NCBI RefSeq assembly: GCF_000223395.1
Contig: NC_015931.1
Location: 450,001 to 482,000, forward strand
Source of the DNA: Pyrolobus fumarii 1A
GTDB lineage: Archaea; Thermoproteota; Thermoprotei_A; Sulfolobales; Pyrodictiaceae
Length of the DNA: 32,000 nt
Direction of reading: 5' to 3'
Position 1 is the stretch's first letter. Every line of letters begins with the position of its first letter. Positions 11,092-32,000 of this stretch are shown piece by piece. Under the pieces are notes generated by a model. It made no database searches, had not been told where the DNA came from, and was given only the letters and a program-made list of their open reading frames with translations. The position numbers were made by a program, and so were the translations under genes.

Positions 11092-14000
11092 CTTTCAATT
11101 CATTCTTGGTTGTTTCGCAATACTACGTGGTGAAGAGGTGCCGCCAGAGTCAGGCATTGACCTTTCAATTCATTCTTGGTTGTTTCGAGAGCATGACGTG
11201 TGTGTCACAACCGGCAAGAAGGGCGTGTGTATCTTTCAATTCATTCTTGGTTGTTTCCAGCGCCTGCTCCTAGGCCGTGACCGTGACGAGGAGACGGTCT
11301 ATGTCACCCTTTCAATTCATTCTTGGTTGTTTCGGGTGTGGTAGCCGAACGATAGCCTGGCTAGTGATAGTGTGTACTTTCAATTCATTCTTGGTTGTTT
11401 CCCAAACTTGCCACCAATGCCTCAGCCAACACCAAAACCGTAAGCTTTCAATTCATTCTTGGTTGTTTCTCCCCGCGATTGTCGATACGCCGGGTGTCGT
11501 TACCGTTGGCTTTCAATTCATTCTTGGTTGTTTCCTGTGTCCGCGCCCGGGGACACCCCTCCCTCAGCATGTGCTCCTTTCAATTCATTCTTGGTTGTTT
11601 CCCCTTGTAGCGAGCCACGGCCAACACACCAACCCGATGCTAGTTCTTTCAATTCATTCTTGGTTGTTTCACCGCTCTACGCCACCCCCTACCTGAACGT
11701 CACGACCGGCTTTCAATTCATTCTTGGTTGTTTCACAAAACGCGCGATATATAGACGCGCGCGGCTATAATATAATATAACGCGACTTTCAATTCATTCT
11801 TGGTTGTTTCCTCGATAGCTCTACGAATCGCCTCTGAGCGATTTATTCCACGCTTTCAATTCATTCTTGGTTGTTTCACGGATACGTCTCGCACAGACGT
11901 ACCTCTATCGTCACTTTATCTTTTCTTTCAATTCATTCTTGGTTGTTTCGAAACCCTCTTGACGGGAATGTGGCAGGGCAAGTGGAACTTTCAATTCATT
12001 CTTGGTTGTTTCCTACCAACGTGCTGGTGGCCGCAGCCAGCCTAGCCCCGGACATCCTTTCAATTCATTCTTGGTTGTTTCGGCGCTGCTGGAAGCCGTG
12101 GTGGAGTCTATACCGGTGCTGGACCTTTCAATTCATTCTTGGTTGTTTCTACCCGACTGCCAGGGGAGTACACGTTTACGCCACTAGCGAGTCACCATGG
12201 GTCTTTCAATTCATTCTTGGTTGTTTCGCTGCTGCAGCCTTTATTGCACAGAACGGCTCGTAGCTTACCTTTCAATTCATTCTTGGTTGTTTCCTCGAGA
12301 GCCTCTATGAGAGCGTTAGAGGCACTAGCAAGCTCACAGTGCTTTCAATTCATTCTTGGTTGTTTCTCCAATTGCCAGGATCCTCGAGAAGGAGTTAGGT
12401 GAAGTAGCCACTTTCAATTCATTCTTGGTTGTTTCCTAGGAGTTGAAGGGTTCGAAGGCTGAGGCTGGGATGATACTTTCAATTCATTCTTGGTTGTTTC
12501 CTCGTAGGCGAGGTGTACCGCTGGCGTGCCCATCGCCATTGCCTCCTTTCAATTCATTCTTGGTTGTTTCGTAGGGGGTTGCGGGTACGCTGCATGGTTG
12601 ACGAGCCGCTGGGCTTTCAATTCATTCTTGGTTGTTTCCCGAGCCCGAAGGAGCTTGGCGCGCGCGTCTTCAAGGGCGACTTTCAATTCATTCTTGGTTG
12701 TTTCCGATGGCAACGAGGTTGACGTGCACTTCGACCACCTGGCGCACTTTCAATTCATTCTTGGTTGTTTCGCGTTGGAGAGGCTGCTGGAGGAGCGGAG
12801 GGTTGACGCGAGCTTTCAATTCATTCTTGGTTGTTTCGCGTAGACCTTCAGCAGCGCCCCCCTGCTGGCCGCCTTGCCCAGCTTTCAATTCATTCTTGGT
12901 TGTTTCCAGTAGCATGCCGCTATACTACGAAGTGTTCGTGAAGTGCCTTTCAATTCATTCTTGGTTGTTTCACGCAGTGTAACCCGGGAGAGTACGCGTT
13001 CAACGTGTCAGGTCAGCTTTCAATTCATTCTTGGTTGTTTCATCATGGACTTCTTCAACCGCGTGAGCGTCGTTGAGCATACTTTCAATTCATTCTTGGT
13101 TGTTTCCGGGGTACGTGGTCACAACCGCATCACCGTGTGTGCAGCGAACCTTTCAATTCATTCTTGGTTGTTTCAAACCAGCGCCGTGCCTCGGAAACGG
13201 TGATTATGTAGAAATAGCCTTTCAATTCATTCTTGGTTGTTTCCTACGAATAGCATAGGCGGGCACCGTATCTACCTACCCGAGTATGGCTTTCAATTCA
13301 TTCTTGGTTGTTTCGCAACCCGGCCTAGCTGTAGCCATGCTTGTATGCTTCGCCATATACCTTTCAATTCATTCTTGGTTGTTTCAATAGCTCCACTACT
13401 TGGTCAACGGCGTACCCCATCCACTTCTTTCAATTCATTCTTGGTTGTTTCAGGCGAAGCCCGACGAGGTTGCCGCCGAGATATCTGGTATCCCTTTCAA
13501 TTCATTCTTGGTTGTTTCTAGGATAGAGACGGTGAAGGGCAACGGGGCGTTCTTCGAGACTAGTGCTTTCAATTCATTCTTGGTTGTTTCTGATTCTCCC
13601 ACCCGGCTGAGCGGTGATGACGGCAGCCTCCACTCTTTCAATTCATTCTTGGTTGTTTCAGGGCAGTAGGATTAGCGCCAGGAGTGGCGCGAGGGTTATC
13701 AAAAACTTTCAATTCATTCTTGGTTGTTTCTACCGACGAGCAGACGGCTACGCCGCGCACCCAGCGAGAGGCTATCGACTTTCAATTCATTCTTGGTTGT
13801 TTCTCCGCGCGCGAGATCCATCTCTCCCGCCCCCGCGCTTCGGGTAGCTTTCAATTCATTCTTGGTTGTTTCTCGCTCGAGGAGGTGAGGAGGCTGGCCC
13901 AGGAGGGTAGCTTTCAATTCATTCTTGGTTGTTTCGTCGCGTAGTATACGCGCCGCGGTGAGCACCCCGAGCTGCTCCTTTCAATTCATTCTTGGTTGTT

Positions 14001-16549
14001 TCCTGGCCGTGGCCCCTCTCGCAATCGGCCTCAGCTTCCTCCCTTTCAATTCATTCTTGGTTGTTTCGGAGAAGATGGCGGTCTCAGGGCCGCCGCCCGC
14101 GAGGCGGTCCCACTTTCAATTCATTCTTGGTTGTTTCATAGGGGGTCGTCTGGCAACACGACCTTCGAGATAACGTTCAACGTGACGAGCTTTCAATTCA
14201 TTCTTGGTTGTTTCCATCGAGGCTCTGGACTACCTCGCCGAGATGATAGACTATAGGGCTTTCAATTCATTCTTGGTTGTTTCGCCAGGCCCGAGGCGGT
14301 GAGGTTTGACAACGTGGAGAGGAACGGACTTTCAATTCATTCTTGGTTGTTTCACCTTGGCGTCCGGCAGTGGCGGGGCCGACGGCCCCACCAGGCCCCG
14401 CCTTTCAATTCATTCTTGGTTGTTTCGGATTGTTCTAGCATCTGCTCCGAACCCAAATCATAATTCGCTTTCAATTCATTCTTGGTTGTTTCCGTGGCAT
14501 AGTGATAGTGGCAACGCATACTGACATATTCCACGTCGGTCCTTTCAATTCATTCTTGGTTGTTTCTACGGCAGGAGCGCCGAGCAGGTTGAGCTCGCGA
14601 GCCTACTTTCAATTCATTCTTGGTTGTTTCTCTAGCTCTACGCTCACGTTGAGGGGCACGGCTCTCACCCCCTTTCAATTCATTCTTGGTTGTTTCCATG
14701 GGCGCGGTTGAGACCTTCGAGGACAGGATAGCCTCGACTTTCAATTCATTCTTGGTTGTTTCTCTATGGTGGATGGCGAGGACGGCGACATCTGGTACGA
14801 GCTTTCAATTCATTCTTGGTTGTTTCCCGTGTCCTGGTCACCAACCAGCTCCTAGCCCCGGGCGTGCGCGTGCAGCTCTTCGTACTTTCAATTCATTCTT
14901 GGTTGTTTCACGAGGTGAGAGACTTCACAGAGATAGCCCGCATAGTAGCAAAAACGCCTTTCAATTCATTCTTGGTTGTTTCTGGAACCGCCGCCACCGT
15001 TGGCCTGACGCTATTCGTGATTGCTTTCAATTCATTCTTGGTTGTTTCTCCGGATCCCCGCACCGCGTATAGAGGGTATGCGCGGGGGTATAACTTTCAA
15101 TTCATTCTTGGTTGTTTCACATGGAGGAGCCAAGGCTCATAACCGCGATACGCGAGAATGCTTTCAATTCATTCTTGGTTGTTTCCAGAAGTCTTACGAC
15201 GGATACTAGTGGTGCAAATAATGCTTTCAATTCATTCTTGGTTGTTTCACTACACGACCCTGCAAATTCCCATCGTGTCATAGTGTCATACTTTCAATTC
15301 ATTCTTGGTTGTTTCGCGGTCTGGAGCCCGGTGCACGGATCTACATCTACGATGTCTTTCAATTCATTCTTGGTTGTTTCCTGGCCGCCGCACTTGGCGT
15401 TGAGGGTGTGGAGGCAAGCGCTTTCAATTCATTCTTGGTTGTTTCACGAGGCAGTGTGTTAGTGACGATAGGCCGGTGTGTAGCGAGACTTTCAATTCAT
15501 TCTTGGTTGTTTCTTAACAGCGTACTTCAGCGCTTCGCGGACGCCAACGCGTACCTTTCAATTCATTCTTGGTTGTTTCCGCGTTGGTCTTGTAGCTCTC
15601 TGCGCCGGCGTCCACGCGGGAGTCGCTTTCAATTCATTCTTGGTTGTTTCCCCGCATGGGTCTACCCCTCTCCCGAGATGCGCAAGGTAGCGACCCTTTC
15701 AATTCATTCTTGGTTGTTTCGTAGCTCTCGATCCACCCGCGGAACACAGGGTCGGCATGCTTTCAATTCATTCTTGGTTGTTTCCAGCCTCACTAGAATC
15801 TCGTATATCTCGCGGGCTTGTTGTATCTTTCAATTCATTCTTGGTTGTTTCGCTCGGTGTTCAAGTCGGTGGTCTACGACCGTTGCGGGTGCGTCCAGAC
15901 TTTCAATTCATTCTTGGTTGTTTCAGTGATATGCTAGTCGGTGATTTATGGTGATAATAAACGTGCTACTTTCAATTCATTCTTGGTTGTTTCGTACTGA
16001 AAAGTGTTGGTCTACTTGATAAGCTAAGAATGTATCTTTCAATTCATTCTTGGTTGTTTCAATACAAAACAATCAAGATATTGACGGGCCTGCCTTTAGT
16101 AAATGTAACTTTCAATTCATTCTTGGTTGTTTCTTGTAATGCGGGGTGAGGGCATGAAACTGAGAGAATTAGTACTTTCAATTCATTCTTGGTTGTTTCG
16201 ACGTCGTAATGCAGATCATGACGCGGTGGTTGCTAACGCCACTCTTTCAATTCATTCTTGGTTGTTTCTGCGGATAGAGGAGGGGAGGATAACGTTTCCG
16301 ATCGGGGTGCTTTCAATTCATTCTTGGTTGTTTCAAAACGATCCGTGTCGAGTCCGGCCTCGCGATAATCAAGGTACTTTCAATTCATTCTTGGTTGTTT
16401 CAGCGTCACGTCCCAGCTTCTCCTGCCGTAGGCGGTGTACGCTGGTTGGTCTGGACTTTCAATTCATTCTTGGTTGTTTCTCGCTAGGAAGGGCCGCGAG
16501 TGGGTGGCTGCCGTGAGTTATGGGCTTTCAATTCATTCTTGGTTGTTTC
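11092..16549 (-). CRISPR. CRISPR array 1: 80 repeats and 79 spacers, transcribed from the minus strand with the leader at the right end
   Basis: The 25-bp repeat CTTTCAATTCATTCTTGGTTGTTTC (plus strand) was located by hand at 80 positions from 11092 to 16525. Spacers are 38-58 bp. Orientation is set by the ATTGAAAG 3' end of the reverse-complement repeat and by the conserved leader at 16550-16858. The repeats look identical on inspection. Confidence 0.98.
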
Positions 16550-16584
16550 TGCATTCTTGCCGTGTGGTTATAGGGTCTCTCTTC

Positions 16585-16591
16585 TATTTAT
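16585..16591 (-). promoter_or_regulatory. TATA-box-like ATAAATA of the array-1 leader promoter
   Basis: On the minus strand, agaaaagaATAAATAgaag lies about 36-42 nt upstream of the first repeat, preceded by an A-rich BRE-like stretch. The same element sits at the same distance in the array-2 leader. Confidence 0.55.
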
Positions 16592-16661
16592 TCTTTTCTC
16601 TGTTGTCTTTGTTTCTGTGATTTGAGTGTAGTCGTGCCGGGCACAGATGGCCGTGGGGTAT

Positions 16662-16678
16662 GGTCCGCGGGTAGTACC
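16662..16678 (-). promoter_or_regulatory. Leader box GGTACTACC-N3-GGACC (proximal copy, array 1)
   Basis: The plus strand reads ggtccgcgggtagtacc. The box lies 112 bp from the first repeat, exactly as at 23698-23714. Confidence 0.5.
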
Positions 16679-16761
16679 GAGTTTATAAGCCGGGCAAGGG
16701 TTAAATACCGGATTACAGCGGTCGGGAGTACCTCACATCCACCCATGGAACCGTGAGCGAC

Positions 16762-16778
16762 GGTCCACCGGTAGTACC
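16762..16778 (-). promoter_or_regulatory. Leader box GGTACTACC-N3-GGACC (distal copy, array 1)
   Basis: The plus strand reads ggtccaccggtagtacc, exactly 100 bp from the proximal copy. Confidence 0.5.
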
Positions 16779-16854
16779 AGGGGTTAAAAGGATTACGCTG
16801 AGTGGTAGAAAAAGTTTTTCGTAGAGATGTGGTTTATGCTTTTCGGCTCTTGGC

Positions 16855-16938
16855 TTGTGTGGGTTGTGTTGTTTTGGTGGTTTGTTGGGTGTGTGTTGTG
16901 GTGTTGTTGGTTGTTTTGGTAGGTTTGGTGGTGGTGTT
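16855..16938. repeat. Low-complexity tract of about 85 bp made almost entirely of G and T (C/A on the other strand)
   Basis: The sequence ttgtgtgggttgtgttgttttggtggtttgttgggtgtgtgttgtggtgttgttggttgttttggtaggtttggtggtggtgttgt contains a single A and no C after 16854. It lies between the leader homology and the probable cas4 start. Confidence 0.8.
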
Positions 16939-20122: not shown

Positions 20123-20508
20123 CGCGGGTCGCCGATTTGCAAGTCTTTCGTCTCCTCGGCGGCGAGTGCCGGGTGTGTAGAGTCGGGGGAGATCGACTGT
20201 AAGGTTGACGCGCTGGCCGTGATCCGTGACCCGAGTGGATCGGTGACTATCGTGTCGGGGGCTATGGTCGGCGGGGAGTGTGTGGGGCCTTACCGTGCCC
20301 TGGCTAGCGACGTCCTAGACCCGGGTGTAGTCGGGCTCCTCGCCCGCGTGGCCCGCATCCTCGCTGATGCCGGGTGCCGGTGGTGACCCGTTCGAGCCTA
20401 GAGCGCGACTATACACTAGTCCCGAGCGGTCTCGCCGGCCGCGCCGTCCGGGCGCTCCGCGAGAACGGCTTCACGGTCCTGGGGGAGGGTAGGGCTAGGC
20501 TAGGGTGA
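20123..20508 (+). pseudogene. Decayed ACT-domain (ACT_7-like) gene with no start codon and one frameshift
   Basis: My translation gives ...DALAVIRDPSGSVTIVSGAMVGGECVGPYRALASDVLDPGVVGLLARVARILADAGCRW* (stop at 20384-20386). It continues in another frame as PVVTRSSLERDYTLVPSGLAGRAVRALRENGFTVLGEG* (stop at 20506-20508). Joined, this matches the ACT_7 pattern L.eaG(I/V)pv..iSt.erDYiLV....l..A..aL...Gf.v. The frame change sits at the ggg run near 20372-20374. Confidence 0.4.
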
Positions 20509-20785
20509 CTCCGGGTTTGGGCTTCGCGCCGGGTATGTTGGCGCCCTCGCCTATCACTATCCTCGTCTCCCACGTATGGTCGTGGACGAGTATGATGTCG
20601 ACCCGGTCCGTCACCGGGTCTATTATCCTCTTCAGCGCCGCCGCCACCTGCCTCGCCTTCTCCCTCCCGCCCCTCGCCGCATAGAGGCTCCTCTGGATCC
20701 TCTGGAAGCCCATGGAGAGTAGGAGCTTCGCAGCCCTATCCCTCTTGTAGTCGTCGCTTATGTCATAGGCGACTATCACTATCAC
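20495..20785 (-). CDS. cas2: Cas2
   Basis: MIVIVAYDISDDYKRDRAAKLL..GFQRIQRSLY is a classic Cas2 ferredoxin-fold N-terminus. The protein is 96 aa and lies directly downstream of cas1. Confidence 0.9.
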   Translation of the reverse strand: MIVIVAYDISDDYKRDRAAKLLLSMGFQRIQRSLYAARGGREKARQVAAALKRIIDPVTDRVDIILVHDHTWETRIVIGEGANIPGAKPKPGVTLA

Positions 20786-20787
20786 GG

Positions 20788-21807
20788 CTACCTCACCGCC
20801 TCGCGGAACGGCGCGTACATGGAGCCGCTGCGCACCGCCTGCGCGAGGAGCCTAGCGTGCCTCGCCATGTGCCTCTCTAGGGTGTCGCTCTTGCCCGTCG
20901 CCCCGTCCCTCACAACCCTCTCCCTCACCCACCTCGCGTACTCCGCTACCAGCCTCGAGCGCGTCTCCGCATCCATGAGGCCGGTTTGCGGGTCTCTCAC
21001 CGGCCTCCATCCGCCCGCGAGCAGCTTGTAGGCCAGGCGGTCGACTGCCGAGACCCTGAAGAGTTCCGCGAAGTCGTATACTAGGGTTGGGCGCCCGCTC
21101 CTATCCGCGTGGATGAAGCCCACGTAGGGGTCCAGCCCGTACATGACGAGGTAGCGGTGTACCCACGCGTAGAGGAGCGCGTAGAGGTAGTTGAGGATCG
21201 TGTTCATCGGGTCTGGGGAGTCGTGGTTCCTCCCCTGGAACCCCACGTCGCCCGGCAGGAGGGCGGCGAGCGCACCCCAGTACCTCCTCGCGGCGTGCGC
21301 CTCCAGCACACGCAGCCTATCGACGCTATCCTCGCCCAGAGCCCTCCTGGCGTACTCCTCGATCCTCTCGGCCTCGTCTCGAAGCCAGGCCTCGCCCCTC
21401 TCGAGCGCCAGGCTCCGGAGGAACCCAGCCTGGTTGAGCATCTTCCCGTAGACTATGCTCTTGGCCACCGCGAGCCTCGAGGAGGGGTCCGTAGCGGCCC
21501 TATACTGGGCTATCCTCGTCTCGCTCGTCCTGCTCACCCACGGGGGTGTGAGGGTAACCACCGGGTTGCCACGGGCGTCTAGGAACAGGATGTCTATCCC
21601 GAGCCTCGCCAGCCTCCTCACCGCCGAGCTCGTAATACTCACCTGCGACGTGACTATCACGATGCGGTCTACCTCCGCGATAGGCACGACGCTCCGGCTC
21701 CTACCCCCGCCATCCACAGACTCGACCACTATCGCCCCGCGGTGCACGCGCAGCCTGGCGCCCCTAGCGGAGACCACCAGCACCCGGGGAGCCCCGTCTC
21801 CTCCCAA
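20788..21807 (-). CDS. cas1: Cas1 integrase
   Basis: Cas1 motifs are present: LEAHAARRYW, MNTILNYLYALLY, GFIHADRSGRPTLVYDFAELFR. The length is 339 aa. Confidence 0.95.
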   Translation of the reverse strand: MGGDGAPRVLVVSARGARLRVHRGAIVVESVDGGGRSRSVVPIAEVDRIVIVTSQVSITSSAVRRLARLGIDILFLDARGNPVVTLTPPWVSRTSETRIAQYRAATDPSSRLAVAKSIVYGKMLNQAGFLRSLALERGEAWLRDEAERIEEYARRALGEDSVDRLRVLEAHAARRYWGALAALLPGDVGFQGRNHDSPDPMNTILNYLYALLYAWVHRYLVMYGLDPYVGFIHADRSGRPTLVYDFAELFRVSAVDRLAYKLLAGGWRPVRDPQTGLMDAETRSRLVAEYARWVRERVVRDGATGKSDTLERHMARHARLLAQAVRSGSMYAPFREAVR

Positions 21808-21822
21808 CCAGCGCCACCCCCG

Positions 21823-22692
21823 CTACGGGGCGCACACGAGGCGCATCGGGCACTGGTCGGGGCACCTAGGAGGCCTCCCAGGGTCCACCTGCGACACGAC
21901 GATCTCCGCAGCCTCGTCGCGCGCAGTGAGGAACTCGGCTCGCTCCTCGTTACCGATGTAGACGGGCTCCAGGGTCAACCTAGAGCCATCGCCGTTCACG
22001 AGTATGACGAGGCCATAGTCGAAGGGTATCTCGAGGCTAGCCTCCAAGGCCATCGCGTAGCCCGCGAGCGCCACCGGGTAGTCGCGGCTCCACCTCCCAT
22101 ACTTCACCTCGACGACAAGCCCGGGGGCCAGTGCATCCACCCGAAGCCTCCTGGAGAGCCCCAGCAGACCCCCGTCGACCTCATACTCTGTTATCCAGGG
22201 CGGCGCCCCAGTCTCCTCCATCCACTGGGCCCACGCGAACACCATCTTCTTGTACACGCGCGCCGCGAAGACGGCGATGCCGTCACCGTCTCCCTCTATA
22301 CCGGCAGACTCGAGTATCACGGAGGCCCTCTCACGCGCGCCGCCCACGAGCTCGGCCACGGCGTCCTCGGTGCTCTTCCCCTCGCCCAGGACGAGCCTAG
22401 AGAGGTCACGCGCAGCCAGCCTGAAAGCCTCGTGGACGATCCGCCCCTTGAGCATCGCCTCGGTGGGTTGCCCTCGGAGCCCGCGGACCCTCCGGAGCCA
22501 GAGGTCACGCCGGGTCGGGCAGTAGCGGTACGCGACCTCAGACACCCCGAGCCCCACGAAGTACCTCGGCTTTACCGGGCTACTGTGCCAGCTCCACCCC
22601 CGGTACCGCTCCTCGACGGGATCAGCAGCCCGCAGTAGGTGCAGCTTGCGGAGCGCTCGGGCGAGCGACGAGGCCGCGAGCAGAGCAGGCAC
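21823..22692 (-). CDS. csa1: Csa1/Cas4'-type Cas4-family nuclease
   Basis: Motifs present: YRYCPTRRDLWL (N-terminal Cys), VDALAPGLVVEVKYG (D...ExK), YPVALAGYAMAL, and the C-terminal RCPDQCPMRLVC. The size of 289 aa and the position upstream of cas1-cas2, divergent from csa3, match the type I-A csa1-cas1-cas2 arrangement. Confidence 0.7.
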   Translation of the reverse strand: MPALLAASSLARALRKLHLLRAADPVEERYRGWSWHSSPVKPRYFVGLGVSEVAYRYCPTRRDLWLRRVRGLRGQPTEAMLKGRIVHEAFRLAARDLSRLVLGEGKSTEDAVAELVGGARERASVILESAGIEGDGDGIAVFAARVYKKMVFAWAQWMEETGAPPWITEYEVDGGLLGLSRRLRVDALAPGLVVEVKYGRWSRDYPVALAGYAMALEASLEIPFDYGLVILVNGDGSRLTLEPVYIGNEERAEFLTARDEAAEIVVSQVDPGRPPRCPDQCPMRLVCAP

Positions 22693-22867: not shown

Positions 22868-23542
22868 GTGGGACACATCGAGGCGCTACTCTACGTCATC
22901 CAGGCTAGCCCGGAGGGAGCCATACAACACGTGATCCGCCACCGCCACGCGGATACCGTGATAGTCGCGGTGCCAGCGCCGCCAACAAGAGCAGCACTAC
23001 TAGCCTACCACGAGATACGCCTGGTGGCCACGAGGCTAGGCTACCAGGACGCACACCTCATACAACTGCCGGTGGCCAACCCCCCGCTAGCCACACACGA
23101 AGCTTACAAGGCGGTGAGAGACTACAACGCGATACACGCCCTGATAAACGCCCCGCCAGCCATGGCGATACCCGTCTACACCGCACTACTCCTACACGCC
23201 CTGACGAACAACGCGCGCATCACCATAACGCTGGCCACGCTAGACCCCCAACAACCCTACACGACACTAACACTAGATCCAGTCACTACCATAATCACCG
23301 GGAGAGGCCTAGCCTCAACAAGGGCGCGGATAGCCCACCTGCTCCTACAGGAGGGCAGAACAACACCAACAAGAGCAGCACAACACCTAAACATATCAAA
23401 GACAACCGCAGAGAAACACCTCCGCTGGCTCAGGAACAAACAACTAGCAAACCAGGCACACGGCAACATCTACACACCAACACCATGGCTAAAACTACAC
23501 CACGAAATACACTGGAAACAAGCCAAGAGTCGAAAAGCATAA
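22868..23542 (+). CDS. csa3: Csa3-like transcriptional regulator (CARF-like N-terminal domain plus C-terminal winged HTH)
   Basis: The protein is 224 aa. The C-terminal IAHLLLQEGRTTPTRAAQHLNISKTTAEKHLRWLRNKQLA is a wHTH. The N-terminal beta-alpha-beta pattern (VIVAVPAP..., ALINAPPAMAIPVYTALLL) fits a Csa3 CARF domain with a degenerate loop motif. The gene is divergent from csa1-cas1-cas2, as in Sulfolobus. It has a GTG start. Confidence 0.7.
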   Translation: MGHIEALLYVIQASPEGAIQHVIRHRHADTVIVAVPAPPTRAALLAYHEIRLVATRLGYQDAHLIQLPVANPPLATHEAYKAVRDYNAIHALINAPPAMAIPVYTALLLHALTNNARITITLATLDPQQPYTTLTLDPVTTIITGRGLASTRARIAHLLLQEGRTTPTRAAQHLNISKTTAEKHLRWLRNKQLANQAHGNIYTPTPWLKLHHEIHWKQAKSRKA

Positions 23543-23597
23543 GCCAAGCCCTCACGAAATCCTTTTTCCACCCTTCAGCGTAACGCTTCTAACCCCT

Positions 23598-23614
23598 GGT
23601 ACTACCGGTGGACC
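23598..23614 (+). promoter_or_regulatory. Leader box GGTACTACC-N3-GGACC (distal copy, array 2)
   Basis: The box reads ggtactaccggtggacc, embedded in taacccctggtactaccggtggaccgt. Confidence 0.5.
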
Positions 23615-23697
23615 GTTGCCTATGGGACTATGACTGGTTGAGAGTAGCACAAGACCGCTGTAAACTCATACTTAAGCTTTTCTCTGCTTATAAACCC

Positions 23698-23714
23698 GGT
23701 ACTACCGCTGGACC
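23698..23714 (+). promoter_or_regulatory. Leader box GGTACTACC-N3-GGACC (proximal copy, array 2)
   Basis: The box reads ggtactaccgctggacc, embedded in taaacccggtactaccgctggaccgt. It is 100 bp from the distal copy and 112 bp from repeat 1. Confidence 0.5.
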
Positions 23715-23784
23715 GTCCCGCAAGGGCACCGTTGAAGCCCATTACACCTCCCCAACCACAGAAACAAAGACAACAGAGAAAAAG

Positions 23785-23791
23785 ATAAATA
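23785..23791 (+). promoter_or_regulatory. TATA-box-like ATAAATA of the array-2 leader promoter
   Basis: In gagaaaaagATAAATAggagag, the element lies 36-42 nt upstream of the first repeat at 23827. Confidence 0.55.
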
Positions 23792-23826
23792 GGAGAGAGA
23801 CCTTACAACCACACGGCAAGCGTGCA

Positions 23827-25977
23827 GAAACAACCAAGAATGAATTGAAAGGCGGAGGTAGAACCAGGCGCGTAGGAGGCGCCTGTAAAAACTCTGAAAC
23901 AACCAAGAATGAATTGAAAGCATTGACGTATCTAGGTTCCCACCCACAGACGTGCCCCTCTGATGAAACAACCAAGAATGAATTGAAAGGCAGCATGGGC
24001 ACCAACTCTGGGACTCGCTAAGGTGGAAGTTCTTGAAACAACCAAGAATGAATTGAAAGGTGGCGGTTCACCGCCGCATAAAGAAGGACAAAGCGAAGGC
24101 GAAACAACCAAGAATGAATTGAAAGGAGCGTCACGACCTCGCCGGCGTTCCTGGTCTCCGGGAGATGCAGAAACAACCAAGAATGAATTGAAAGTCAACC
24201 AGCTCATCAATCACCTTGAACTTCTCCTCAAGCCTCCTACGAAACAACCAAGAATGAATTGAAAGGACACTAATGACATTAGCGGGTTTGATTGACAGGT
24301 TGACACGGGAAACAACCAAGAATGAATTGAAAGAGACGGTGACCCGTGTGAGTGTAGAACTGATTACAGGCTCGTCTGAAACAACCAAGAATGAATTGAA
24401 AGCGGGATGATACAGGGCAGGAGGAGCAGCGGCCTGGGCTGCAGGGGAAACAACCAAGAATGAATTGAAAGCCCCCACTGGGCCCGGTTCGGGCGGTTAC
24501 CGCCTCATAGACGGAGAAACAACCAAGAATGAATTGAAAGTTTCGTTGTTCTTTTCCACGCTCATCCAACCCACCGAGTGACTCATCATGAAACAACCAA
24601 GAATGAATTGAAAGATTCCCGTTCCCAGGCCGGGGCTCGGGGCTAGGCTCTGGCTCGGGCTCCTGAAACAACCAAGAATGAATTGAAAGACATTCTCGAA
24701 CGCGTCTATGGGCACAATGAGATTGCGGAGTTCGGAAACAACCAAGAATGAATTGAAAGCGATCGCGAGGATAATCCCGTTACGTAAAGCAACGATGTGA
24801 AACAACCAAGAATGAATTGAAAGGCCTACGCATGAGCTCGGGGTGGGCCACGGCCAACACCACGGAAACAACCAAGAATGAATTGAAAGGATCAGCTTCA
24901 ACGTGATGATCCTGGCCTTGTCCACCTGGTCGCTGAAACAACCAAGAATGAATTGAAAGCTCTCGGGTATTTCTCGGCGCCGTAGTGCCCCTCGGGCTTG
25001 AAGCGCGTGAAACAACCAAGAATGAATTGAAAGAACCACCTTGCCGGTTACCACACCCGCGGTTATGATCTTGGAAACAACCAAGAATGAATTGAAAGTT
25101 ATCGGTGCCACGCCGCGCCACCCACCTGACACTACCACCGAAACAACCAAGAATGAATTGAAAGGAACTGGTGGCACGCATACTGGTACGCTCAGCAGTA
25201 CGCTCGAGAAACAACCAAGAATGAATTGAAAGCACAAGGGCTGGTACACTAGCGTCGAGCACTCTGGAGGCGGAGAAACAACCAAGAATGAATTGAAAGC
25301 TCGATAGTATTTTTCATAGCTTTCAGATTACTCTTGAGCTCGTGAAACAACCAAGAATGAATTGAAAGTATCGTCACTTTATCTTTTAGGTTTGGCGTTA
25401 CAGCCCAGTAGGAAACAACCAAGAATGAATTGAAAGGTGATACTCGCTGTGGGGATTAGCGTTGGGACGGCGCTCGCGGCGAAGAAACAACCAAGAATGA
25501 ATTGAAAGGCGTTATACCAGCGCCGATTGACGCGCTCGGGCGCTTCTAGGAAACAACCAAGAATGAATTGAAAGCATAACTGAGAACCCAGCGCTCAAGG
25601 CGTTGTACGAGCGTAACGAAACAACCAAGAATGAATTGAAAGTTGAGGGGCTTGCACTCTATATCCAGGTGAACCCTAGTCGATGAAACAACCAAGAATG
25701 AATTGAAAGTAATTCTCCTGGTAACGCCGCTCGCAACCCCCAGTGTAGCTCCTGAAACAACCAAGAATGAATTGAAAGTTTTAGCTAGGAGCGGCCACGC
25801 TGCAACGTATTGCGATATGAGAAACAACCAAGAATGAATTGAAAGGATGACGATTGATATATGGCGGCGTGCGCGGTATGGAGAGGAAACAACCAAGAAT
25901 GAATTGAAAGCAGTCGCCGTCGTACGGCTGGTGGTTGATGTAGCCGCGTGGGGAAACAACCAAGAATGAATTGAAAG
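23827..25977 (+). CRISPR. CRISPR array 2: 32 repeats and 31 spacers, transcribed from the plus strand
   Basis: The repeat GAAACAACCAAGAATGAATTGAAAG was located by hand at 32 positions (23827 to 25953). Spacers are 39-50 bp. The leader is immediately upstream. Confidence 0.98.
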
Positions 25978-26441: not shown

Positions 26442-27374
26442 TCATATAGTGTCCCCCTCTCGACGGCATTCTATGTCAACACTCCTCATGATCATCCACC
26501 GCGCCTCTTCCGGGTATAAGCGTGTGCTGGACTCCTCTCGGCAGTGCATTCTTGCTACAGCATTGTCTGCTAGCATCAACACGCCCGACACCCTTCTAGC
26601 CTCCACAGCTTTATCTTCCTGAACTGAGGCCCAGTGAGGTAGTAGTGTCGAGGCATGCTCGAGTATAGGCTCGATGCCTACCCGCTCAAGAGTGTCAGCC
26701 AAGTGTTTCAAGTCCTCAGCTACATCTCTTGACACCTTTTTGCACACTTCGCAGCAGGGTCTAAGCTCTTCTACACCCACCTTGCATCTCGAGAGGCTCT
26801 CAGCAACCTCTACTATAACGTCCCTCATGTTGTTGATGAACTCGCCCCTCTCACCACTTTTCATGCCCGCGACTCTAGCTGATATCCATGCAAGCCCGTC
26901 GAGATAGACTCTAGTCTCGAGGCCCCTCAAACCCTGATGATGTAGCAACACAGCCCGTGCGACTATCGCGCTATCCTGTGAACTCTCCCCGTGGAACCAC
27001 ATGTGATAACCATAGACAGCCGCGGAGAGAACCTCGTGGTATCTGAACGAGAGCCTCCATTTCGACTCACAACCCCTCCTCTCGGTATCCTCGATCCTCC
27101 TCTTGTTCAAGAAGTTGTGAAGCACCTTGCCGATGTCGTGCACAGCGGCCGCTAGCATGGCAAAACGTTGGTCGACGCCAAGCCTTTTCGCGAGGGCACA
27201 CGCCGCTATAGCCGAGCCTACCAGGTGTTCAACAAGCACCTCTTTAACAAGCTTATAGCCACCGCTCGTCTCGACACACTCGAATCTAGCGTATAGGCTC
27301 ACACCGCCACCTCTGTACGTGTCCTGCCACATCACCCTACACCACCCGAAGCCCATTCTCCCGGTCATACACAT
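26442..27374 (-). CDS. cas3: Cas3'' HD nuclease (the real start is probably Met15 at 27332, just after the cas3' stop)
   Basis: HD-domain motifs are present: [34 protein letters not shown]. The gene is directly downstream of the Cas3' helicase. Confidence 0.85.
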
Positions 27375-29262
27375 CCCGCTTCAAGAGGAAGCCTAGGAGA
27401 AGCCTAGCATCAGTGTAGACAGCGAGCCTCCACATGGTATAGAGGGGTCTCTCGGCAAGCTCGTAGAGGCTTACATCACTCCTAACCCTAAGCCTAAGTC
27501 TACCCTCATCGAGCGTGACAAGCACAGCTTTCACGCTTCCATCCTGATGCTCCAGGTAGCGTTCACCATACTTCCGGATGAACCTGCTGTCGACAGCAAC
27601 GAGTCTGCCTAGCAGCTCTTCAACCTCTCTCTCCGAGACCTCCCTACCATCCACGACCATATCACTGGGGGGTAGCAGAGGTATCAGGGTGCTCTTCCGT
27701 ACGAAGCTTCCGTTGAGCTTCTCGTCAAGCACCTTCACGATCTTACGTGGAGGCTCAGCGAGGGTTGATAAACGCCTGAGCAACTGCTCGAGTTCAGTTG
27801 ACGGCTCAGCAGCCTTAACTTTCACCGAGTACACCTTAGAGTCCAGGTCTCCTAGAAGCTGCCATACAGTCTCGCAACCATCTACACCGCCGCACCTCCA
27901 GTCAAGGCAGCCCCTACAACCATCAAACACCCTGCATCCTAGCACATTCACAACCAAGTTTAGGGTCTCTCTCGTTGCATCAGTATCATAGATGCCATTT
28001 ACAATTCTCAACTTCTCCGCATCGTCATAGACTATGATGATCGTGTTGATGTCGCTCGGTTTACGGTGTCGCGCTACTCTGCCAGCCCTCTGGATGAGAG
28101 CAGGCAGCGGCGCAGCCTCCGAGACGAGAATGTCGAAGTCGAGGTCGACGCCAGCCTCGACAACCTGCGTTGCGAAGAGACAAACTCTATCACCATCCTT
28201 CAACAGCTTCTCAACCTTCTCGAGCTTATCGTGACGCTGCTCCTCACTCATCTTCCCCGTCACAAGCACGGGTTTACAGCCAAGCTCCCGCTCGAGCCTA
28301 GAGCCCCACTCGCTGAACGTCTTGTAAGCCCTCCTCCACGAGTTGAACGCGATGAACACGCTCTTGGCGCCACTCTCGAACCTCCCCTTAAGCTCGTCGA
28401 GAAGAGCCCCAAGATCAACCACAGAGTCTACAACCTCAGCCCTCTTCACTATAGTATCAATGCAACCGCAGTGTTCCGCTTCAAACCCCCTATCGAAGCC
28501 GATATGCTCCTCGAGTCTCACTGCGATCTTGCCGAGCACGCTGAGAAGCCTCTGGTAGAGCTTCCACTGTCTATCACCATAGCCTACGAGCCACACGTTG
28601 GACTTTACACCGGCATTTGATAATACAGCCTCAAGTAGACTTGGCGGTAGTGTTGCAGTGAAGACAGCAACACACCTTCCACTTCCAACATACTCCCGGA
28701 CGATACTGGTGATTACGCCAGCTTGCTTCCTGAGAAGATCGATTTCATCATCCTCTGCCTCACCATCCCCAGAGACCATCAAGTGGTACTCGTCGAGTAT
28801 GAGCAGGTTGAAGCTCCTGGCGAGAGTATAGGCAACGTCGCTGTGCCACGCGCTCCTCATAAGCTCATAGACGGGAATCCCGTAGAACGAGAGCGCGAAG
28901 CTATCAACCGTCACTATCATGTAGTCCCTGGCAAGGTAGGGGGACTTAGCGACACCCTTCACAAGAACACCAGCCTGGAAGCCAACAACATCAGATGCCC
29001 CGAGACCCTTGGCGGCGGAGGCAGCTTTCACAGCAGCCTCAGAGACTATAGCGCGCAAAGGAAGCACGTGAGCAACTCGAAGACCCTCCCTTGCTATCCT
29101 ACTGATAAGCTTGTGTCTGACGAAGCTAGTCTTGCCATAACCCGTTGGTAGCACCCCGACAACCAACCCGCCATTCTCGAGACACTCGTCGATAGCCCTC
29201 GCCAGTCTATCGAGAAGGAGTCTTGTAGGAGCCTTGCCTGTGCCTATCTTCATCTTAACCAC
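27337..29262 (-). CDS. cas3: Cas3' superfamily-2 helicase
   Basis: Helicase motifs are present: [10 protein letters not shown] (motif I), LILDEYHLM (DExH-type motif II), FTATLP (III), [14 protein letters not shown] (V), QRAGRVARH (VI). Confidence 0.9.
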
Positions 29263-30541
29263 CCCCGGCGGATCTCAGCACGCGGGCGCAAGTGTCAACG
29301 CGTGTAATTCCATTCACGGATGTCAAGTTGCGGATAACAGAGTAGAAGATGTCGCGGTCGACACTACCCTGCAGGATAAAGTCGTAGAGTGGCGTAAGTT
29401 GGGCTGCAACCGCACGCGCCCCACTCTCGTTCAGTACGCCGTGCGAAGCCGCATCGATTATACAACCAGGTAACAACCGGAGCATCGTGAGTAGCCTGTG
29501 CAAAGTCAAGCCAAGTTCGTCGGCAGCGGAGGCGACGCTCTGATAGGCTAGTAGTAGATCCTCGCCACTCACTACTGTAGTCTCCATGAACCTAGTGTCC
29601 TCCGGGTAGTTTACGATAACGATGCTAGGCCATCTGGGGAGAAGCTCGATACTCTCCTCAGACACGCTGTGAAGAACCTCAATCACAAGCAGCCTATAAG
29701 TCCAGCCAACGACATCACCAAAGTACTGCACAAATTCAACTTGCCTACCTAGACCAGGTACGCGGTAGACAATTGATCTCACGTCAATCTTGCACTGGTT
29801 GTCTAGGCGCGGCTGGAACAACACATAAACAGCCTCATGTAGACTCAAGTCGGCATCACCGAGATCACCTAGAAGCACGTTAAGCATCCGCTTCGCTTTT
29901 GCACGTGCCTCGCGGTTGCGTGGATAGACAGTCCTCTCGCGAAGAGCATCGAGAGCGTATATAAATGGCGCTAGATCGCCGAGCGAGACATCTATAAAAC
30001 CTTTCCTAGGCTTAGGTGTCCTCCCGGCTTGCTCATTCTGGTTCGCCTCGGATGCATAGCCTCTCGCGTAGAAGTAGCGCAGAGGATTTGTAATCACACG
30101 ATCCTGCGCCGCTCTCGTCCTCTTGCCCATTATGAACCCCCCAGCCTTCCAAACACAGTTTTGGCTACTCTCGTCGTAGCTTAGCGTAATATTATCCCAG
30201 GATGAGGATGTTAGACTACTTGCATTCATCCCCCACATAGAGGGCGTGCTTGTGTCAATGTTACACCCTTGATTGCACGTTATTTCGATGTACTCGGCTT
30301 TAGCCGAGGAGTTGTAACCGTGCTCGATTCTACAGTCGCACTTTACACTTGTCTTCACGCATCTTCTAAGATCCTCAGAGTTCGCAATGTACCATGTGAT
30401 TGCCGCTAGTGTGAAAGCGAGTGATCTCGCTAAAAGTGCCTCCGGCGGCGGGACGAAGATGCGAGCCGTGTTAGACGGTGTAGATGGAGCTTTTGCCGCT
30501 CGTCTCGACCCGGTTGCACGCTTAACCCGCTTCTTTGCCAT
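29255..30541 (-). CDS. Unrecognised 428-aa protein between cas5 and cas3', a positional candidate for a divergent Cas8a-type large subunit
   Basis: Its ends overlap cas5 (20 nt) and cas3' (8 nt), so it belongs to the operon. It has a basic N-terminus ([17 protein letters not shown]) and a Cys-rich stretch, [15 protein letters not shown]...ITCNQGC. I recognise no family motif. Confidence 0.3.
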
Positions 30542-31451
30542 GGTCCCGCACCCTGGGTATGACTATACGCGTATGCACGAGTATATACTCTATTGTAGGT
30601 TCACGCTTAGAGGGAAAAACAGAGTTTAAACTCTCAACGCGATACACGCCACACTTATCCGTGTTGATTTTTACGCGCACCCAACCCGGGTATCTGGGGT
30701 GTATCGCTTCGCGTAGCACATTGAATCTGGTTAAGCTTGGGTTTAGCTTACTGCAGGGTTCAGCCGAGTAGCTGCATATAAGCTCGTCCGCGTCGCGTGG
30801 TACAGGCGTCTTCTCGGCCACATAGTTTCCGTAAACATTTCCAACGCATTCTCTCAACGTGAGCCAGGGTGTCACAATCTCGTTGACACCATGCTCCTCT
30901 ACAAGTTGAGCCTCAAACACGGCCAGGGGATCGACAAACGACTCTTTACCGCCAAGCCGCGAGACATGCTGCAGACCCGTCTTGAGCGCGTCTATGTCCC
31001 CGTCTTCGGATGCAACCAGTACCATTACCCTACCGTGGGGTGAAATCGTGTACCCTAGCTTTATTGGCGCAAAGAGCTCGTGGACGGCGAGTTTCTGCGG
31101 GAGGTCTTCACGCCTAGTTTTGAGCGACTGATACGGGCCTGTGAAGTAGCGTATGAGTATACCGGTTCTAATGGAGGGTGAGAGCCAGGCTGCCGAAACC
31201 CACCATCTCCTACCGAGGATCTTTATTATGGATGCAGCGCCGCTAGTTAAGATCGACCCGGAGCCGATACTCGTAATTATGAACTCGCGTGTACCCAGCA
31301 ACCCGAGGTCGTGGAGGGTCTTGGCTAGCGCCCCTAGAATTGTGGTTGGCGGGGGGAGTAGGTATGAAGGTTGAGATGCGCTTCCGAACCACGCTCGGCT
31401 CGACAACCCCCAGTGGACGCGGTATACCGCAATAGCAGCTCGGAGTACCAA
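30522..31451 (-). CDS. cas5: Cas5 (Cas5a-like)
   Basis: The N-terminal AVYRVHWGLSSRAWFGSASQPSYLLPPPTTILGALAKTL matches the Cas5 signature (...s.ty.lPpPstilGal...). The gene lies directly downstream of cas7. Confidence 0.7.
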   Translation of the reverse strand: MVLRAAIAVYRVHWGLSSRAWFGSASQPSYLLPPPTTILGALAKTLHDLGLLGTREFIITSIGSGSILTSGAASIIKILGRRWWVSAAWLSPSIRTGILIRYFTGPYQSLKTRREDLPQKLAVHELFAPIKLGYTISPHGRVMVLVASEDGDIDALKTGLQHVSRLGGKESFVDPLAVFEAQLVEEHGVNEIVTPWLTLRECVGNVYGNYVAEKTPVPRDADELICSYSAEPCSKLNPSLTRFNVLREAIHPRYPGWVRVKINTDKCGVYRVESLNSVFPSKREPTIEYILVHTRIVIPRVRDHGKEAG

Positions 31452-31458
31452 GACGTTT

Positions 31459-32000
31459 TCACCTGGCGGTGCACTGCAAGCCTACATTGTCTCGAATCCT
31501 CCCGATCAAGTCGGGTATGGTGTTCGTTATCTCAACACCTGGTAGCCTGCCTATCAGCTGCCTGAGCCTCTCGGCGTAGTTGCTGCCTAGGGCTGCCGTG
31601 ACATATGCTACGAGCTTCACGTCAACATTGAGCTTCTTGTAGTCGTCTAGCTTCCTCTTAAGTTCCTCCACAAGGTTCTCGAGGGGTAGTGTCGCTGGGG
31701 GTAGCGGCACCGGCCTGTCGCTCAAAACTGCTATGACAAGCTCGGTGACGTTATGCGGCCTGTACCTTGACCTCTTGGCTCCAAAATCGCCTTCGAGCAA
31801 CGGCCTAAGTGCATCCAGAGCAACGCACCTTCTCAATGTCAGCGTGCACTCTTTGTCCTCCACGCACCCCCCTGCTATGCTATAGCTCCCCACGCAACAG
31901 AGGTCAAGCTCGATGTTGCCGCCGTAGAGCACCGACCCGACCTGCACGTAGTATGGGACCTGGATGGCCTCCTCGTAGCCAGGTAGCCTCAACGACTGTG
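31459..32000 (-). CDS. cas7: Cas7 (Csa2-like), C-terminal part only. The ORF is open to the window edge
   Basis: There is no in-frame stop between 31992 and 32000. The segments ..VPYYVQVGSVLYGGNIELDL..VG.. and ..LEGDFGAKRSRYRP.. resemble the Csa2/DevR-type Cas7 C-terminal half. The position upstream of cas5 also fits. Confidence 0.6.
   Translation of the reverse strand, partial: QSLRLPGYEEAIQVPYYVQVGSVLYGGNIELDLCCVGSYSIAGGCVEDKECTLTLRRCVALDALRPLLEGDFGAKRSRYRPHNVTELVIAVLSDRPVPLPPATLPLENLVEELKRKLDDYKKLNVDVKLVAYVTAALGSNYAERLRQLIGRLPGVEITNTIPDLIGRIRDNVGLQCTAR

What the first reader, a model, noticed from the sequence alone, without database searches (positions are those of the whole stretch)
11878..11924. 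Array-1 spacer overlaps an array-2 spacer (25369-25411) by 19 nt on opposite crRNA strands, reconstructing a 71-nt invader segment with a CCT PAM
Seen in sequence: the array-1 spacer reads, on the plus strand, acggatacgtctcgcacagacgtacctcTATCGTCACTTTATCTTTT. The array-2 spacer reads TATCGTCACTTTATCTTTTaggtttggcgttacagcccagtag. The two share an exact 19-mer at their abutting ends. The arrays are transcribed in opposite directions, so the two crRNAs target opposite strands of the same DNA. A chance 19-mer match among about 5 kb of spacers is negligible. Using each spacer as flank for the other, the array-1 protospacer is preceded by ..aaaCCT, which agrees with the CCN PAM known for type I-A. The array-2 protospacer is preceded by ..aCCTc, so the CC is offset by one nt. 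Inference: there were two independent acquisitions from one hot spot of a low-GC invader, possibly primed or PAM-slipped.
Basis: seen in the sequence. Interest (0 to 1): 0.6.

Follow-up and report, generated by a model that had tools for sequence, protein, structure and literature searches.

The report
Two CRISPR spacers overlapping one invader site
Two immune "memory" snippets stored in the two CRISPR arrays of the hyperthermophile Pyrolobus fumarii were copied from overlapping positions on opposite strands of one unknown invader; this is real but an ordinary outcome of repeated sampling of one invader.

Summary
Spacer 11878-11924 (array 1) and spacer 25369-25411 (array 2) share the 19-mer TATCGTCACTTTATCTTTT. 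It sits at the leader-proximal, PAM-side end of both spacers, in reverse-complement crRNA sense. It is the only end-to-end overlap of 8 nt or more among the 110 spacers. In 300 shuffles the longest shared word never exceeded 17.

The locus is the type I-A CRISPR-Cas system of Pyrolobus fumarii 1A. Two arrays with identical repeats and 86%-identical leaders are read outward from a csa3/csa1/cas1/cas2 cassette.

Each spacer supplies the flank of the other. These flanks give PAMs CCT (canonical CCN) and CTC (the same CCT displaced by one base).

The best explanation is two separate captures from two copies of one foreign DNA, probably in the same infection episode. Both spacers lie in short runs of unusually low-GC spacers.

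No hot spot or priming is needed. One overlap among 5,995 pairs fits random sampling of a few hundred kb of invader DNA. Overlapping protospacers in different arrays are already documented for Sulfolobus type I-A.

No protospacer was found in any collection, so the invader stays unknown. Interest is low.

The parts
11878..11924 (-). Spacer A1_12 (47 nt). It is the 68th of 79 counted from the leader of array 1. crRNA sense: AAAAGATAAAGTGACGATAGAGGTACGTCTGTGCGAGACGTATCCGT. Inferred PAM: CCT.
25369..25411 (+). Spacer A2_23 (43 nt). It is the 23rd of 31 counted from the leader of array 2. crRNA sense: TATCGTCACTTTATCTTTTAGGTTTGGCGTTACAGCCCAGTAG. Inferred PAM: CTC, which is CCT displaced by +1.
11906..11924 (.). 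Copy 1 of the shared 19-mer TATCGTCACTTTATCTTTT. It abuts the repeat at the leader-proximal end of the spacer.
25369..25387 (.). Copy 2 of the shared 19-mer. It abuts the repeat at the leader-proximal end of the spacer.
11092..16549 (-). CRISPR array 1: 80 identical 25-nt repeats and 79 spacers of 38-58 nt. The crRNA is read on the minus strand.
   Evidence: the repeat in crRNA sense, GAAACAACCAAGAATGAATTGAAAG, ends in the archaeal 8-nt handle ATTGAAAG
23827..25977 (+). CRISPR array 2: 32 identical repeats and 31 spacers. The crRNA is read on the plus strand.
16550..16900 (-). Leader of array 1. It is 86% identical to the leader of array 2 and carries two copies of GGTACTACCNNNGGACC.
23476..23826 (+). 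Leader of array 2. Its upstream part overlaps the 3' end of csa3.
20495..22692 (-). Adaptation genes: cas2 (20495-20785), cas1 (20788-21807) and csa1, a Cas4-family gene (21823-22692).
   Evidence: TIGR00287 at 244 bits; TIGR01896 at 239 bits; PF09827; exact matches to P. fumarii 1A AEM38371 and AEM38372
22868..23542 (+). csa3-like CARF/HTH regulator.
   Evidence: The hits are below the curated cut-offs, but the protein has the right architecture and position.
26442..31992 (-). Type I-A interference genes: cas3'' HD (26442-27374), cas3' helicase (27337-29262), cas8a (29255-30541), cas5a (30522-31451) and cas7/csa2 (31459-31992, which runs off the window).
11735..11852 (-). Neighbouring spacers A1_10 (43% GC) and A1_11 (50% GC). 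Together with A1_12 they form a low-GC run.
25300..25343 (+). Neighbouring spacer A2_22 (36% GC). Together with A2_23 it forms a low-GC pair.

Best explanation
The window carries the type I-A CRISPR-Cas locus of Pyrolobus fumarii 1A. One adaptation cassette (csa3, csa1, cas1, cas2) sits between two arrays with the same repeat and homologous leaders, so it can feed both.

The two spacers are two separate captures from the same foreign DNA sequence, or from near-identical copies of it. They start at two PAMs that face each other about 20 bp apart: 5'-...GTA CCT C [19 nt] AGG TTT...-3'. One capture started right after the bottom-strand CCT and was measured leftwards for 47 nt. It went into array 1. 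The other started one base after the top-strand CCT and was measured rightwards for 43 nt. It went into array 2.

Both need the same 19 bp, so they must come from two DNA molecules. That means two acquisition events.

They probably date from the same infection episode by a comparatively AT-rich element. In both arrays the spacer lies in a short run of unusually low-GC spacers, at similar relative depth.

The outcome is two crRNAs that target both strands of one site. No hot spot or priming is required.

Shown: the overlap, the orientation, the flanks, the I-A gene set and the clustering of spacer GC.
Inferred: the contiguity of the 71-nt composite, CCN as the acquisition motif, the one-base slip, and the shared episode.
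For: - The 19-nt overlap is exact and terminal in both spacers. It is the only dovetail of 8 nt or more among 110 spacers, and shuffles never reach 19.
- Leaders are homologous and the repeats are inverted, so both arrays are read outward from the cassette.
- The gene set is type I-A and the host is identified.
- The flanks read CCT at offsets 0 and +1. My estimate for CC appearing within +/-1 of the expected place at both sites by chance is about 0.01-0.04.
- Both spacers are among the 10 lowest-GC of the 110. GC is autocorrelated along the arrays (lag-1 r=0.26, permutation p=0.002), and low-GC spacers sit next to each other more often than expected (p=0.0008).
- The 19-mer occurs at chance frequency in public genomes, with unrelated flanks.
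- Direct precedent exists in type I-A. On pMGB1, de novo spacers of S. solfataricus overlap each other, including between loci C and D (c15063-15101 and c15033-15072). Protospacers there are random in position and strand, and several spacers enter several loci in one episode (PMC3839810; PMC4390879).
- 26-33% of de novo S. islandicus spacers lack CCN (PMC4333418), so one off-register PAM out of two is unremarkable.
- CTN PAMs still support I-A interference in S. islandicus (PMC4390879).
Against: - No protospacer was found anywhere, so the contiguity of the 71-nt composite and the foreign origin rest on the geometry alone.
- The PAM of this particular system is unknown, and two flanks are a very small sample.
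- The 'same episode' part rests on GC composition only. The relative depths (0.86 and 0.74 of array length) are not significantly close (by my arithmetic, P of about 0.23 under independence).
- I could not search the P. fumarii chromosome outside the window by DNA.
Confidence: 0.78

Rival explanations
1. Primed, interference-driven acquisition. One spacer was acquired first. Its crRNA then directed Cascade/Cas3 to the invader, and degradation products next to the target supplied the second spacer. This would explain why the two protospacers touch.
For: The two protospacers are immediately adjacent and overlap at their PAM-proximal ends on opposite strands. Priming in types I-B, I-E and I-F concentrates new spacers around the priming site (PMC7293040).
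Against: - No evidence for priming was found in Sulfolobales type I-A despite many matching spacers (PMC4390879).
- In P. furiosus, priming needs the I-B effector, not the I-A one (PMC7293040).
[quoted passage not shown] This pair is on opposite strands.
- Only one overlapping pair exists among 110 spacers, and no further clustering is detectable.
- One overlap is what random sampling predicts.
Confidence: 0.12
2. The 19-mer is a short repeated or conserved element, for example the edge of an inverted repeat or a shared regulatory site. It would be present in two different places or replicons, so the 71-nt composite never existed as one sequence.
For: The spacer set does hold a few short words shared by three spacers more often than shuffles predict. 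These are GCCACGGCCA and CGGGGCTAGG: 3 such 10-mers observed against 0 in 285 of 300 shuffles. Related or repetitive invader sequences have therefore been sampled.
Against: - Those shared words are 10-14 nt, internal, and flanked by conflicting sequence.
- The 19-mer is terminal in both spacers with no conflict. If the shared element ended at 19 nt, that would require both spacer ends to coincide with its edges. My estimate of the geometric penalty is 1/25 or less.
- The 19-mer is at chance frequency in 596 Gb of genomes, with unrelated flanks, and absent from IMG/VR.
Confidence: 0.06
3. Self-derived spacers. Both were taken from the P. fumarii chromosome, or from one array by the other, rather than from an invader.
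For: 4-8% of de novo spacers in S. islandicus come from host DNA (PMC4333418). I could not search the chromosome outside the window by DNA.
Against: - Beyond the 19-mer, neither spacer continues into repeat sequence, so neither was copied from the other array.
- The composite has no other match in the 32-kb window.
- None of its three open reading frames matches any protein in a collection that contains the P. fumarii proteome.
- Its GC (48%) is well below the 60% of the non-array window.
Confidence: 0.03
4. Chance identity of two unrelated spacers.
For: None.
Against: 300 shuffles never reach 19 (the maximum was 17, typically 11-12). The expected number of 19-nt dovetails is about 1e-7.
Confidence: 0.001

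Closest known systems
Overlapping de novo protospacers in Sulfolobus solfataricus P2 type I-A (pMGB1 experiments; Erdmann et al., PMC3839810; review PMC4390879)
   Same: - The subtype is the same, and a csa1/cas1/cas2 cassette serves several arrays.
- Several spacers are taken from one element during one episode.
- Protospacers are random in position and strand, and some overlap. Examples: locus C c15063-15101 with locus D c15033-15072, and locus A c17875-17912 with c17894-17928.
- CCN PAM, with CCT the most used.
- Spacer length is variable and measured from the PAM end.
   Different: - This is a natural, old pair, deep in both arrays of a Pyrodictiaceae hyperthermophile with no known virus.
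- This pair lies on opposite strands. The examples I read in that paper are same-strand.
- The invader is unknown, so the PAMs are read from the partner spacer rather than from a genome.
'Slipped' spacers of E. coli type I-E (Shmakov et al. 2014, PMC4027179)
   Same: The spacer start is displaced by 1-2 nt from a consensus PAM ('near-AAG' protospacers). This matches A2_23, whose CCT lies one base further upstream than expected.
   Different: - It is a different subtype, with no Cas4.
- The slip there was documented statistically from thousands of spacers. Here it is a single case, and the PAM itself is inferred.
- The 'flipped', pair-mated spacers of that paper overlap over nearly their full length. 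That is not the case here (19 of 43-47 nt).
Primed adaptation in type I-B, I-E and I-F (e.g. P. furiosus I-B, PMC7293040)
   Same: New protospacers cluster next to an existing target.
   Different: - Priming has not been shown for type I-A.
- It needs a gradient and a strand rule over many spacers, which cannot be assessed from one pair.

Membership tests
Type I-A CRISPR-Cas system | Cas8a large subunit | tested here: met
   29255-30541 (-) matches PADLOC PDLC01424 Cas8a (CAS-I-A) over its full length, 1027 bits. Such a score suggests the model was built from this or a near-identical protein.
Type I-A CRISPR-Cas system | Split Cas3: a separate Cas3' helicase and Cas3'' HD nuclease | tested here: met
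   The HD protein at 26442-27374 matches TIGR01596 at 58 bits (cut-off 43). The helicase at 27337-29262 matches TIGR01587 at 94 bits (cut-off 102, so just below) with E=8e-27.
Type I-A CRISPR-Cas system | Cas5a and Cas7 (Csa2) backbone subunits | tested here: met
   Cas5a: TIGR01874 at 25.7 bits (cut-off 23.05) and PADLOC Cas5a at E=1.7e-14. Cas7: the C-terminal fragment at 31459-31992 matches PF01905 DevR/Csa2 at E=4e-14.
Type I-A CRISPR-Cas system | Csa1 (Cas4-family) with cas1-cas2 and a Csa3 regulator beside the arrays | tested here: met
   Csa1: TIGR01896 at 239 bits. Cas1: TIGR00287 at 244 bits. Cas2: PF09827 at 61 bits. The Csa3-like protein is weak: TIGR01884 at 38.6 bits, below the cut-off of 60.
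Type I-A CRISPR-Cas system | Csa5 small subunit, Cas6 and canonical Cas4 | tested here: not met
   No family hit in the window for any of the three. The 106-aa ORF at 26099-26419 sits where csa5 would be, and the 207-aa ORF at 19488-20111 sits where cas4 would be, but neither has a hit. These genes are often divergent or encoded elsewhere, so this does not overturn the subtype call.
CCN-PAM subfamily of type I-A | Protospacers preceded by 5'-CCN-3' at positions -3 to -1 | tested here: inconclusive
   Only two flanks are available, each read from the partner spacer. One is CCT. The other is CTC, with CCT at -4 to -2. No protospacer was found in any database.
Overlapping protospacers from one invader (independent acquisitions) | Conflict-free dovetail of two spacers beyond chance | tested here: met
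Overlapping protospacers from one invader (independent acquisitions) | Both spacers map to one contiguous site on an identified foreign element | tested here: inconclusive
   No match to the composite or its parts in any of these searches:
- IMG/VR, 8 scans
- JGI metagenomes, 2 scans
- GTDB genomes, 1 scan
- GenBank phages and PLSDB plasmids (blastn of both whole arrays)
- a 5.8-billion-protein collection

Primed adaptation | A gradient of new protospacers and a strand rule around a pre-existing (partially) matching spacer; dependence on Cascade/Cas3 | not testable with these tools
   Testing this needs the invader genome, with many spacers mapped onto it, or genetics. Only one pair is informative.

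The most novel reading that the evidence does not exclude
The pair could be a natural trace of interference-driven (primed) spacer acquisition by a type I-A system. The first spacer's Cascade/Cas3 attack on the invader would have supplied the adjacent, opposite-strand second spacer. Priming has not been demonstrated for type I-A.

A still more speculative corollary follows from the reciprocal quasi-targets. Each crRNA now has a PAM-flanked site with 19 contiguous PAM-proximal matches inside the other array: CCT with 28/47 matches, and CTC with 24/43 matches. The two crRNAs can also pair with each other over 19 nt. This could feed low-level self-priming or crRNA sequestration.
Probability: 0.1. 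Interest if true: 0.5.

Novelty: already known. Interest (0 to 1): 0.15.

Why it matters
No virus or plasmid of Pyrolobus fumarii is known, so any information about its invaders is indirect. P. fumarii is one of the most heat-tolerant cultured organisms. This pair gives three things:

- A 71-nt piece of a past invader, which can serve as a search key for future hydrothermal-vent viromes.
- The only sequence-based hint of the acquisition motif of this system (CCN, with one slipped case), obtained without any invader genome.
- Together with the GC autocorrelation along the arrays, evidence that spacers entered both arrays in bursts from an element about 15 GC points poorer than the host locus.

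None of this changes what is known about CRISPR adaptation. It matches what was measured in Sulfolobus type I-A.

Tried and rejected
**Searches for the protospacer, all negative**
- 19-mer in IMG/VR: 0 hits.
- 19-mer in 596 Gb of GTDB genomes: 11 hits, flanks 15-33% identical, so chance. The P. fumarii record itself did not come up. It is presumably masked or is not the stored representative.
- Left 23-mer in IMG/VR: 0 hits.
- Right 21-mer in IMG/VR: 3 near-identical contigs whose flanks do not match. Only 21 of 43 nt match, and not the PAM-proximal part, so I rejected this as chance.
- Both junction 22-mers in JGI metagenomes: 0 hits.
- Both whole arrays by blastn against GenBank phages and PLSDB plasmids: only E of about 0.7 noise, or nothing.
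- The three open frames of the composite against 5.8 billion proteins: no candidate.
- Degenerate back-translations of frames -2 and +1 in IMG/VR: 0 hits.
- Neighbouring low-GC spacers A2_22, A1_11 and A1_10 in IMG/VR: 0 hits.

**Further overlapping pairs**
- None was found, exact or with up to 5 mismatches.
- The 14-mer shared by A1_08 and A2_15 is internal with conflicting flanks. The 11-mer shared by A1_64 and the composite has random flanks.

**Explanations rejected**
- Copying of one spacer from the other array: the sequence beyond the 19-mer is not repeat.
- 'Flipped' pair-mated spacers: these would overlap over nearly the full length.
- Inversion or recombination between the inverted arrays: this would swap spacers, not make overlapping ones.
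- A significant hairpin in the composite: it has a 7-bp stem, but the z-score is only -1.4.
Full report
**What is in the window**

Exact look-up of Cas1, Csa1, a HerA-like protein and Cas8a identifies the source as Pyrolobus fumarii 1A (AEM38371, AEM38372, AEM38357, AEM38378).

- Array 1 (11092-16549) has 80 identical copies of CTTTCAATTCATTCTTGGTTGTTTC and 79 spacers.
- Array 2 (23827-25977) has 32 identical copies of the reverse complement and 31 spacers.
- Between the arrays lie cas2, cas1 and csa1 on the minus strand and a csa3-like gene on the plus strand.
- To the right of array 2 lie cas3'', cas3', cas8a, cas5a and cas7/csa2.

This is a type I-A locus. No csa5, cas6 or canonical cas4 was recognised in the window.

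In crRNA sense the repeat is GAAACAACCAAGAATGAATTGAAAG, which ends in the archaeal 8-nt handle ATTGAAAG. The 350 bp on the cassette side of each array are 86% identical to each other. Both arrays are therefore read outward from the cassette: array 1 on the minus strand and array 2 on the plus strand.

**Check of the observation**

They share TATCGTCACTTTATCTTTT on the plus strand. In both, the 19-mer abuts the repeat at the leader-proximal end. In crRNA sense, the first 19 nt of one spacer are the reverse complement of the first 19 nt of the other.

- All-against-all comparison of the 110 spacers (4,809 nt) on both strands gives 19 nt as the longest shared word, then 14, 12, 12, and 11 or less.
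- A dovetail test shows that this is the only conflict-free end overlap of 8 nt or more.
- 300 shuffles gave maxima of 10-17 nt, never 19.

**Geometry and PAMs**

Merging the two spacers gives a 71-nt composite: ACGGATACGTCTCGCACAGACGTA CCT C [TATCGTCACTTTATCTTTT] AGG TTTGGCGTTACAGCCCAGTAG.

- For A1_12 (bottom strand) the three bases 5' of the protospacer are CCT.
- For A2_23 (top strand) they are CTC, with CCT one base further upstream.
- The protospacers diverge from two facing CCT motifs, and each PAM lies inside the other protospacer.
- Both spacers need the same 19 bp, so they cannot have been cut from one DNA molecule. There were two capture events.

CCN is the acquisition motif of one Sulfolobales I-A subfamily. 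Other I-A systems use TCN, GTN, ATG and more (PMC4390879; PMC8482600). CCN is therefore plausible here, but it rests on two flanks. My estimate for CC lying within one base of the expected place at both sites by chance is 0.01-0.04.

An off-register PAM is not unusual. 26-33% of de novo S. islandicus spacers lacked CCN (PMC4333418). CTN still supports I-A interference in S. islandicus (PMC4390879). Near-PAM 'slips' are documented in E. coli (PMC4027179).

**Is a hot spot or priming needed?**

No. Summing the overlap windows over all 5,995 spacer pairs gives 4.1e5 nt. One observed overlap therefore corresponds to an effective sampled target pool of about 0.4 Mb. The Poisson 95% range is 0.07-16 Mb. 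That is an ordinary mobilome size.

In S. solfataricus type I-A, protospacers on pMGB1 were random in place and strand. Several overlapped each other, including between different loci. Multiple spacers entered several loci within one episode (PMC3839810; PMC4390879).

No evidence for priming was found in Sulfolobales. In P. furiosus, priming depends on the I-B effector, not the I-A one (PMC7293040).

The divergent, PAM-side geometry cannot separate primed from naive acquisition with a single pair.

**Composition and timing**

- The composite is 48% GC.
- The two spacers are 45% and 42% GC, which ranks them 10th and 5th lowest of the 110. The spacer mean is 58% (SD 9.4), and the non-array window is 60%.
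- Their neighbours are also low: A1_10 at 43%, A1_11 at 50% and A2_22 at 36%.
- Spacer GC is autocorrelated along the arrays (lag-1 r=0.26, permutation p=0.002).
- Spacers below 46% GC are adjacent more often than expected (5 adjacencies, p=0.0008).

This is the signature of burst acquisition from compositionally distinct elements. It places both members of the pair in such bursts. Their relative depths are 68/79 and 23/31 from the leader. That is compatible with one episode but does not prove it.

**Search for the invader**

Nothing was found.

- 19-mer: 0 hits in IMG/VR. It gave 11 hits in 596 Gb of genomes with unrelated flanks, which is chance level and shows it is not a widespread repeat.
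- Flank and junction words: 0 hits in IMG/VR and in JGI metagenomes. The exception is a 21-mer found in three near-identical IMG/VR contigs with unrelated flanks, which I rejected.
- Whole arrays against GenBank phages and PLSDB plasmids: nothing credible.
- The three open frames of the composite: no near-identical protein among 5.8 billion. That collection includes the P. fumarii proteome, which argues against an origin in a host gene.
- Degenerate codon patterns and neighbouring low-GC spacers: 0 hits.
- Within the window, the composite matches only the two spacers.

**Rivals**

| Explanation | Assessment | Weight |
|---|---|---|
| Priming | Possible but unsupported | ~0.12 |
| Short repeated element shared by two loci, so the composite is not contiguous | Disfavoured by the conflict-free terminal geometry and by the chance-level frequency of the 19-mer. 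The spacer set does contain a few 10-14-nt words shared by three spacers above shuffle expectation. | ~0.06 |
| Self-derived spacers, or copying from the other array | Rejected. Sequence beyond the 19-mer is not repeat, and there is no host protein match. | ~0.03 |
| Chance | Excluded | ~0.001 |

**A side consequence**

Each crRNA has a quasi-target in the other array.

- A1_12 against array 2: PAM CCT, 19 contiguous PAM-proximal matches, 28/47 matches in all.
- A2_23 against array 1: PAM CTC, 19 contiguous matches, 24/43 in all.

In S. solfataricus more than 15 mismatches abolish interference (PMC3905844). Both sites here have 19 mismatches. Autoimmunity is therefore not expected, which is consistent with the arrays being stably kept.

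**Verdict**

The additions of 'hot spot' and 'primed' are unnecessary.

The phenomenon is already known for type I-A, and this is an ordinary natural instance. Its modest value is as a 71-nt search key and a PAM hint for the unknown mobile elements of Pyrolobus.

Noticed in passing
arrays 11092-16549 and 23827-25977: Spacer GC content is autocorrelated along both arrays (lag-1 r=0.26, p=0.002). Low-GC spacers come in runs, for example the 6th-9th spacers from the leader of array 1 (15925-16174) at 33-44% GC. This suggests bursts of acquisition from AT-richer elements.
   Followed up: yes
16662-16678, 16762-16778 (-) and 23598-23614, 23698-23714 (+): The motif GGTACTACCNNNGGACC occurs exactly twice in each leader. 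The copies are 100 bp apart and at the same distance from the first repeat. About 0.01 occurrences are expected by chance. It may be a protein-binding site for leader recognition or regulation.
   Followed up: partly
spacers 11602-11645, 14003-14042, 24824-24864; and 12013-12056, 14827-14884, 24615-24664: Two 10-mers, GCCACGGCCA and CGGGGCTAGG, are each shared by three spacers from both arrays. This exceeds shuffles: 3 such words observed against 0 in 285 of 300 shuffles. Their flanks differ, so they are not overlaps. They may reflect related invaders or a low-complexity Pro/Glu-rich coding repeat.
   Followed up: partly
11092-16549 and 23827-25977: All 112 repeats are identical, including the leader-distal terminal repeat of both arrays. 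There is no degenerate last repeat.
   Followed up: no
19488-20111 (+), 26099-26419 (-), 16834-17289 (-): ORFs sit where cas4, csa5 or other small cas genes would be expected, but none has a hit in Pfam, NCBIfam or PADLOC. No cas6 or canonical cas4 was recognised in the window.
   Followed up: partly
5519-6694 (-) and 17480-18670 (-): Two paralogous 'ATPase_2' (archaeal AAA/STAND-like) genes lie on either side of array 1.
   Followed up: no
1003-1488 (-), 3255-5288 (+), 7453-8988 (-): A small CARF protein, a HerA-like ATPase next to an unassigned 560-aa ORF (1570-3252), and a CARF-PIN protein (PADLOC, 630 bits) lie upstream of array 1. They look like cyclic-oligoadenylate accessory genes of a type III system encoded elsewhere.
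   Followed up: no
25388-25408 versus L014:4443-4463, L015:843-863, L016:4493-4513: A 21-nt exact match exists between the PAM-distal half of spacer A2_23 and three near-identical IMG/VR contigs of about 43% GC. The flanks are unrelated, so I judged it a coincidence.
   Followed up: yes
11735-11785: Spacer A1_10 (51 nt) has an odd alternating composition of (TA)n-like and (CG)n-like blocks: TCGCGTTATATTATATTATAGCCGCGCGCGTCTATATATCGCGCGTTTTGT. It may come from a promoter, origin or repeat region of the invader.
   Followed up: no
25341-25390 (-) and 11903-11948 (+): Each crRNA of the pair has a PAM-flanked partial target inside the other array: CCT with 19 contiguous and 28/47 total matches, and CTC with 19 contiguous and 24/43 total matches. 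Judged against the mismatch tolerance reported for S. solfataricus (PMC3905844), these are probably harmless.
   Followed up: partly
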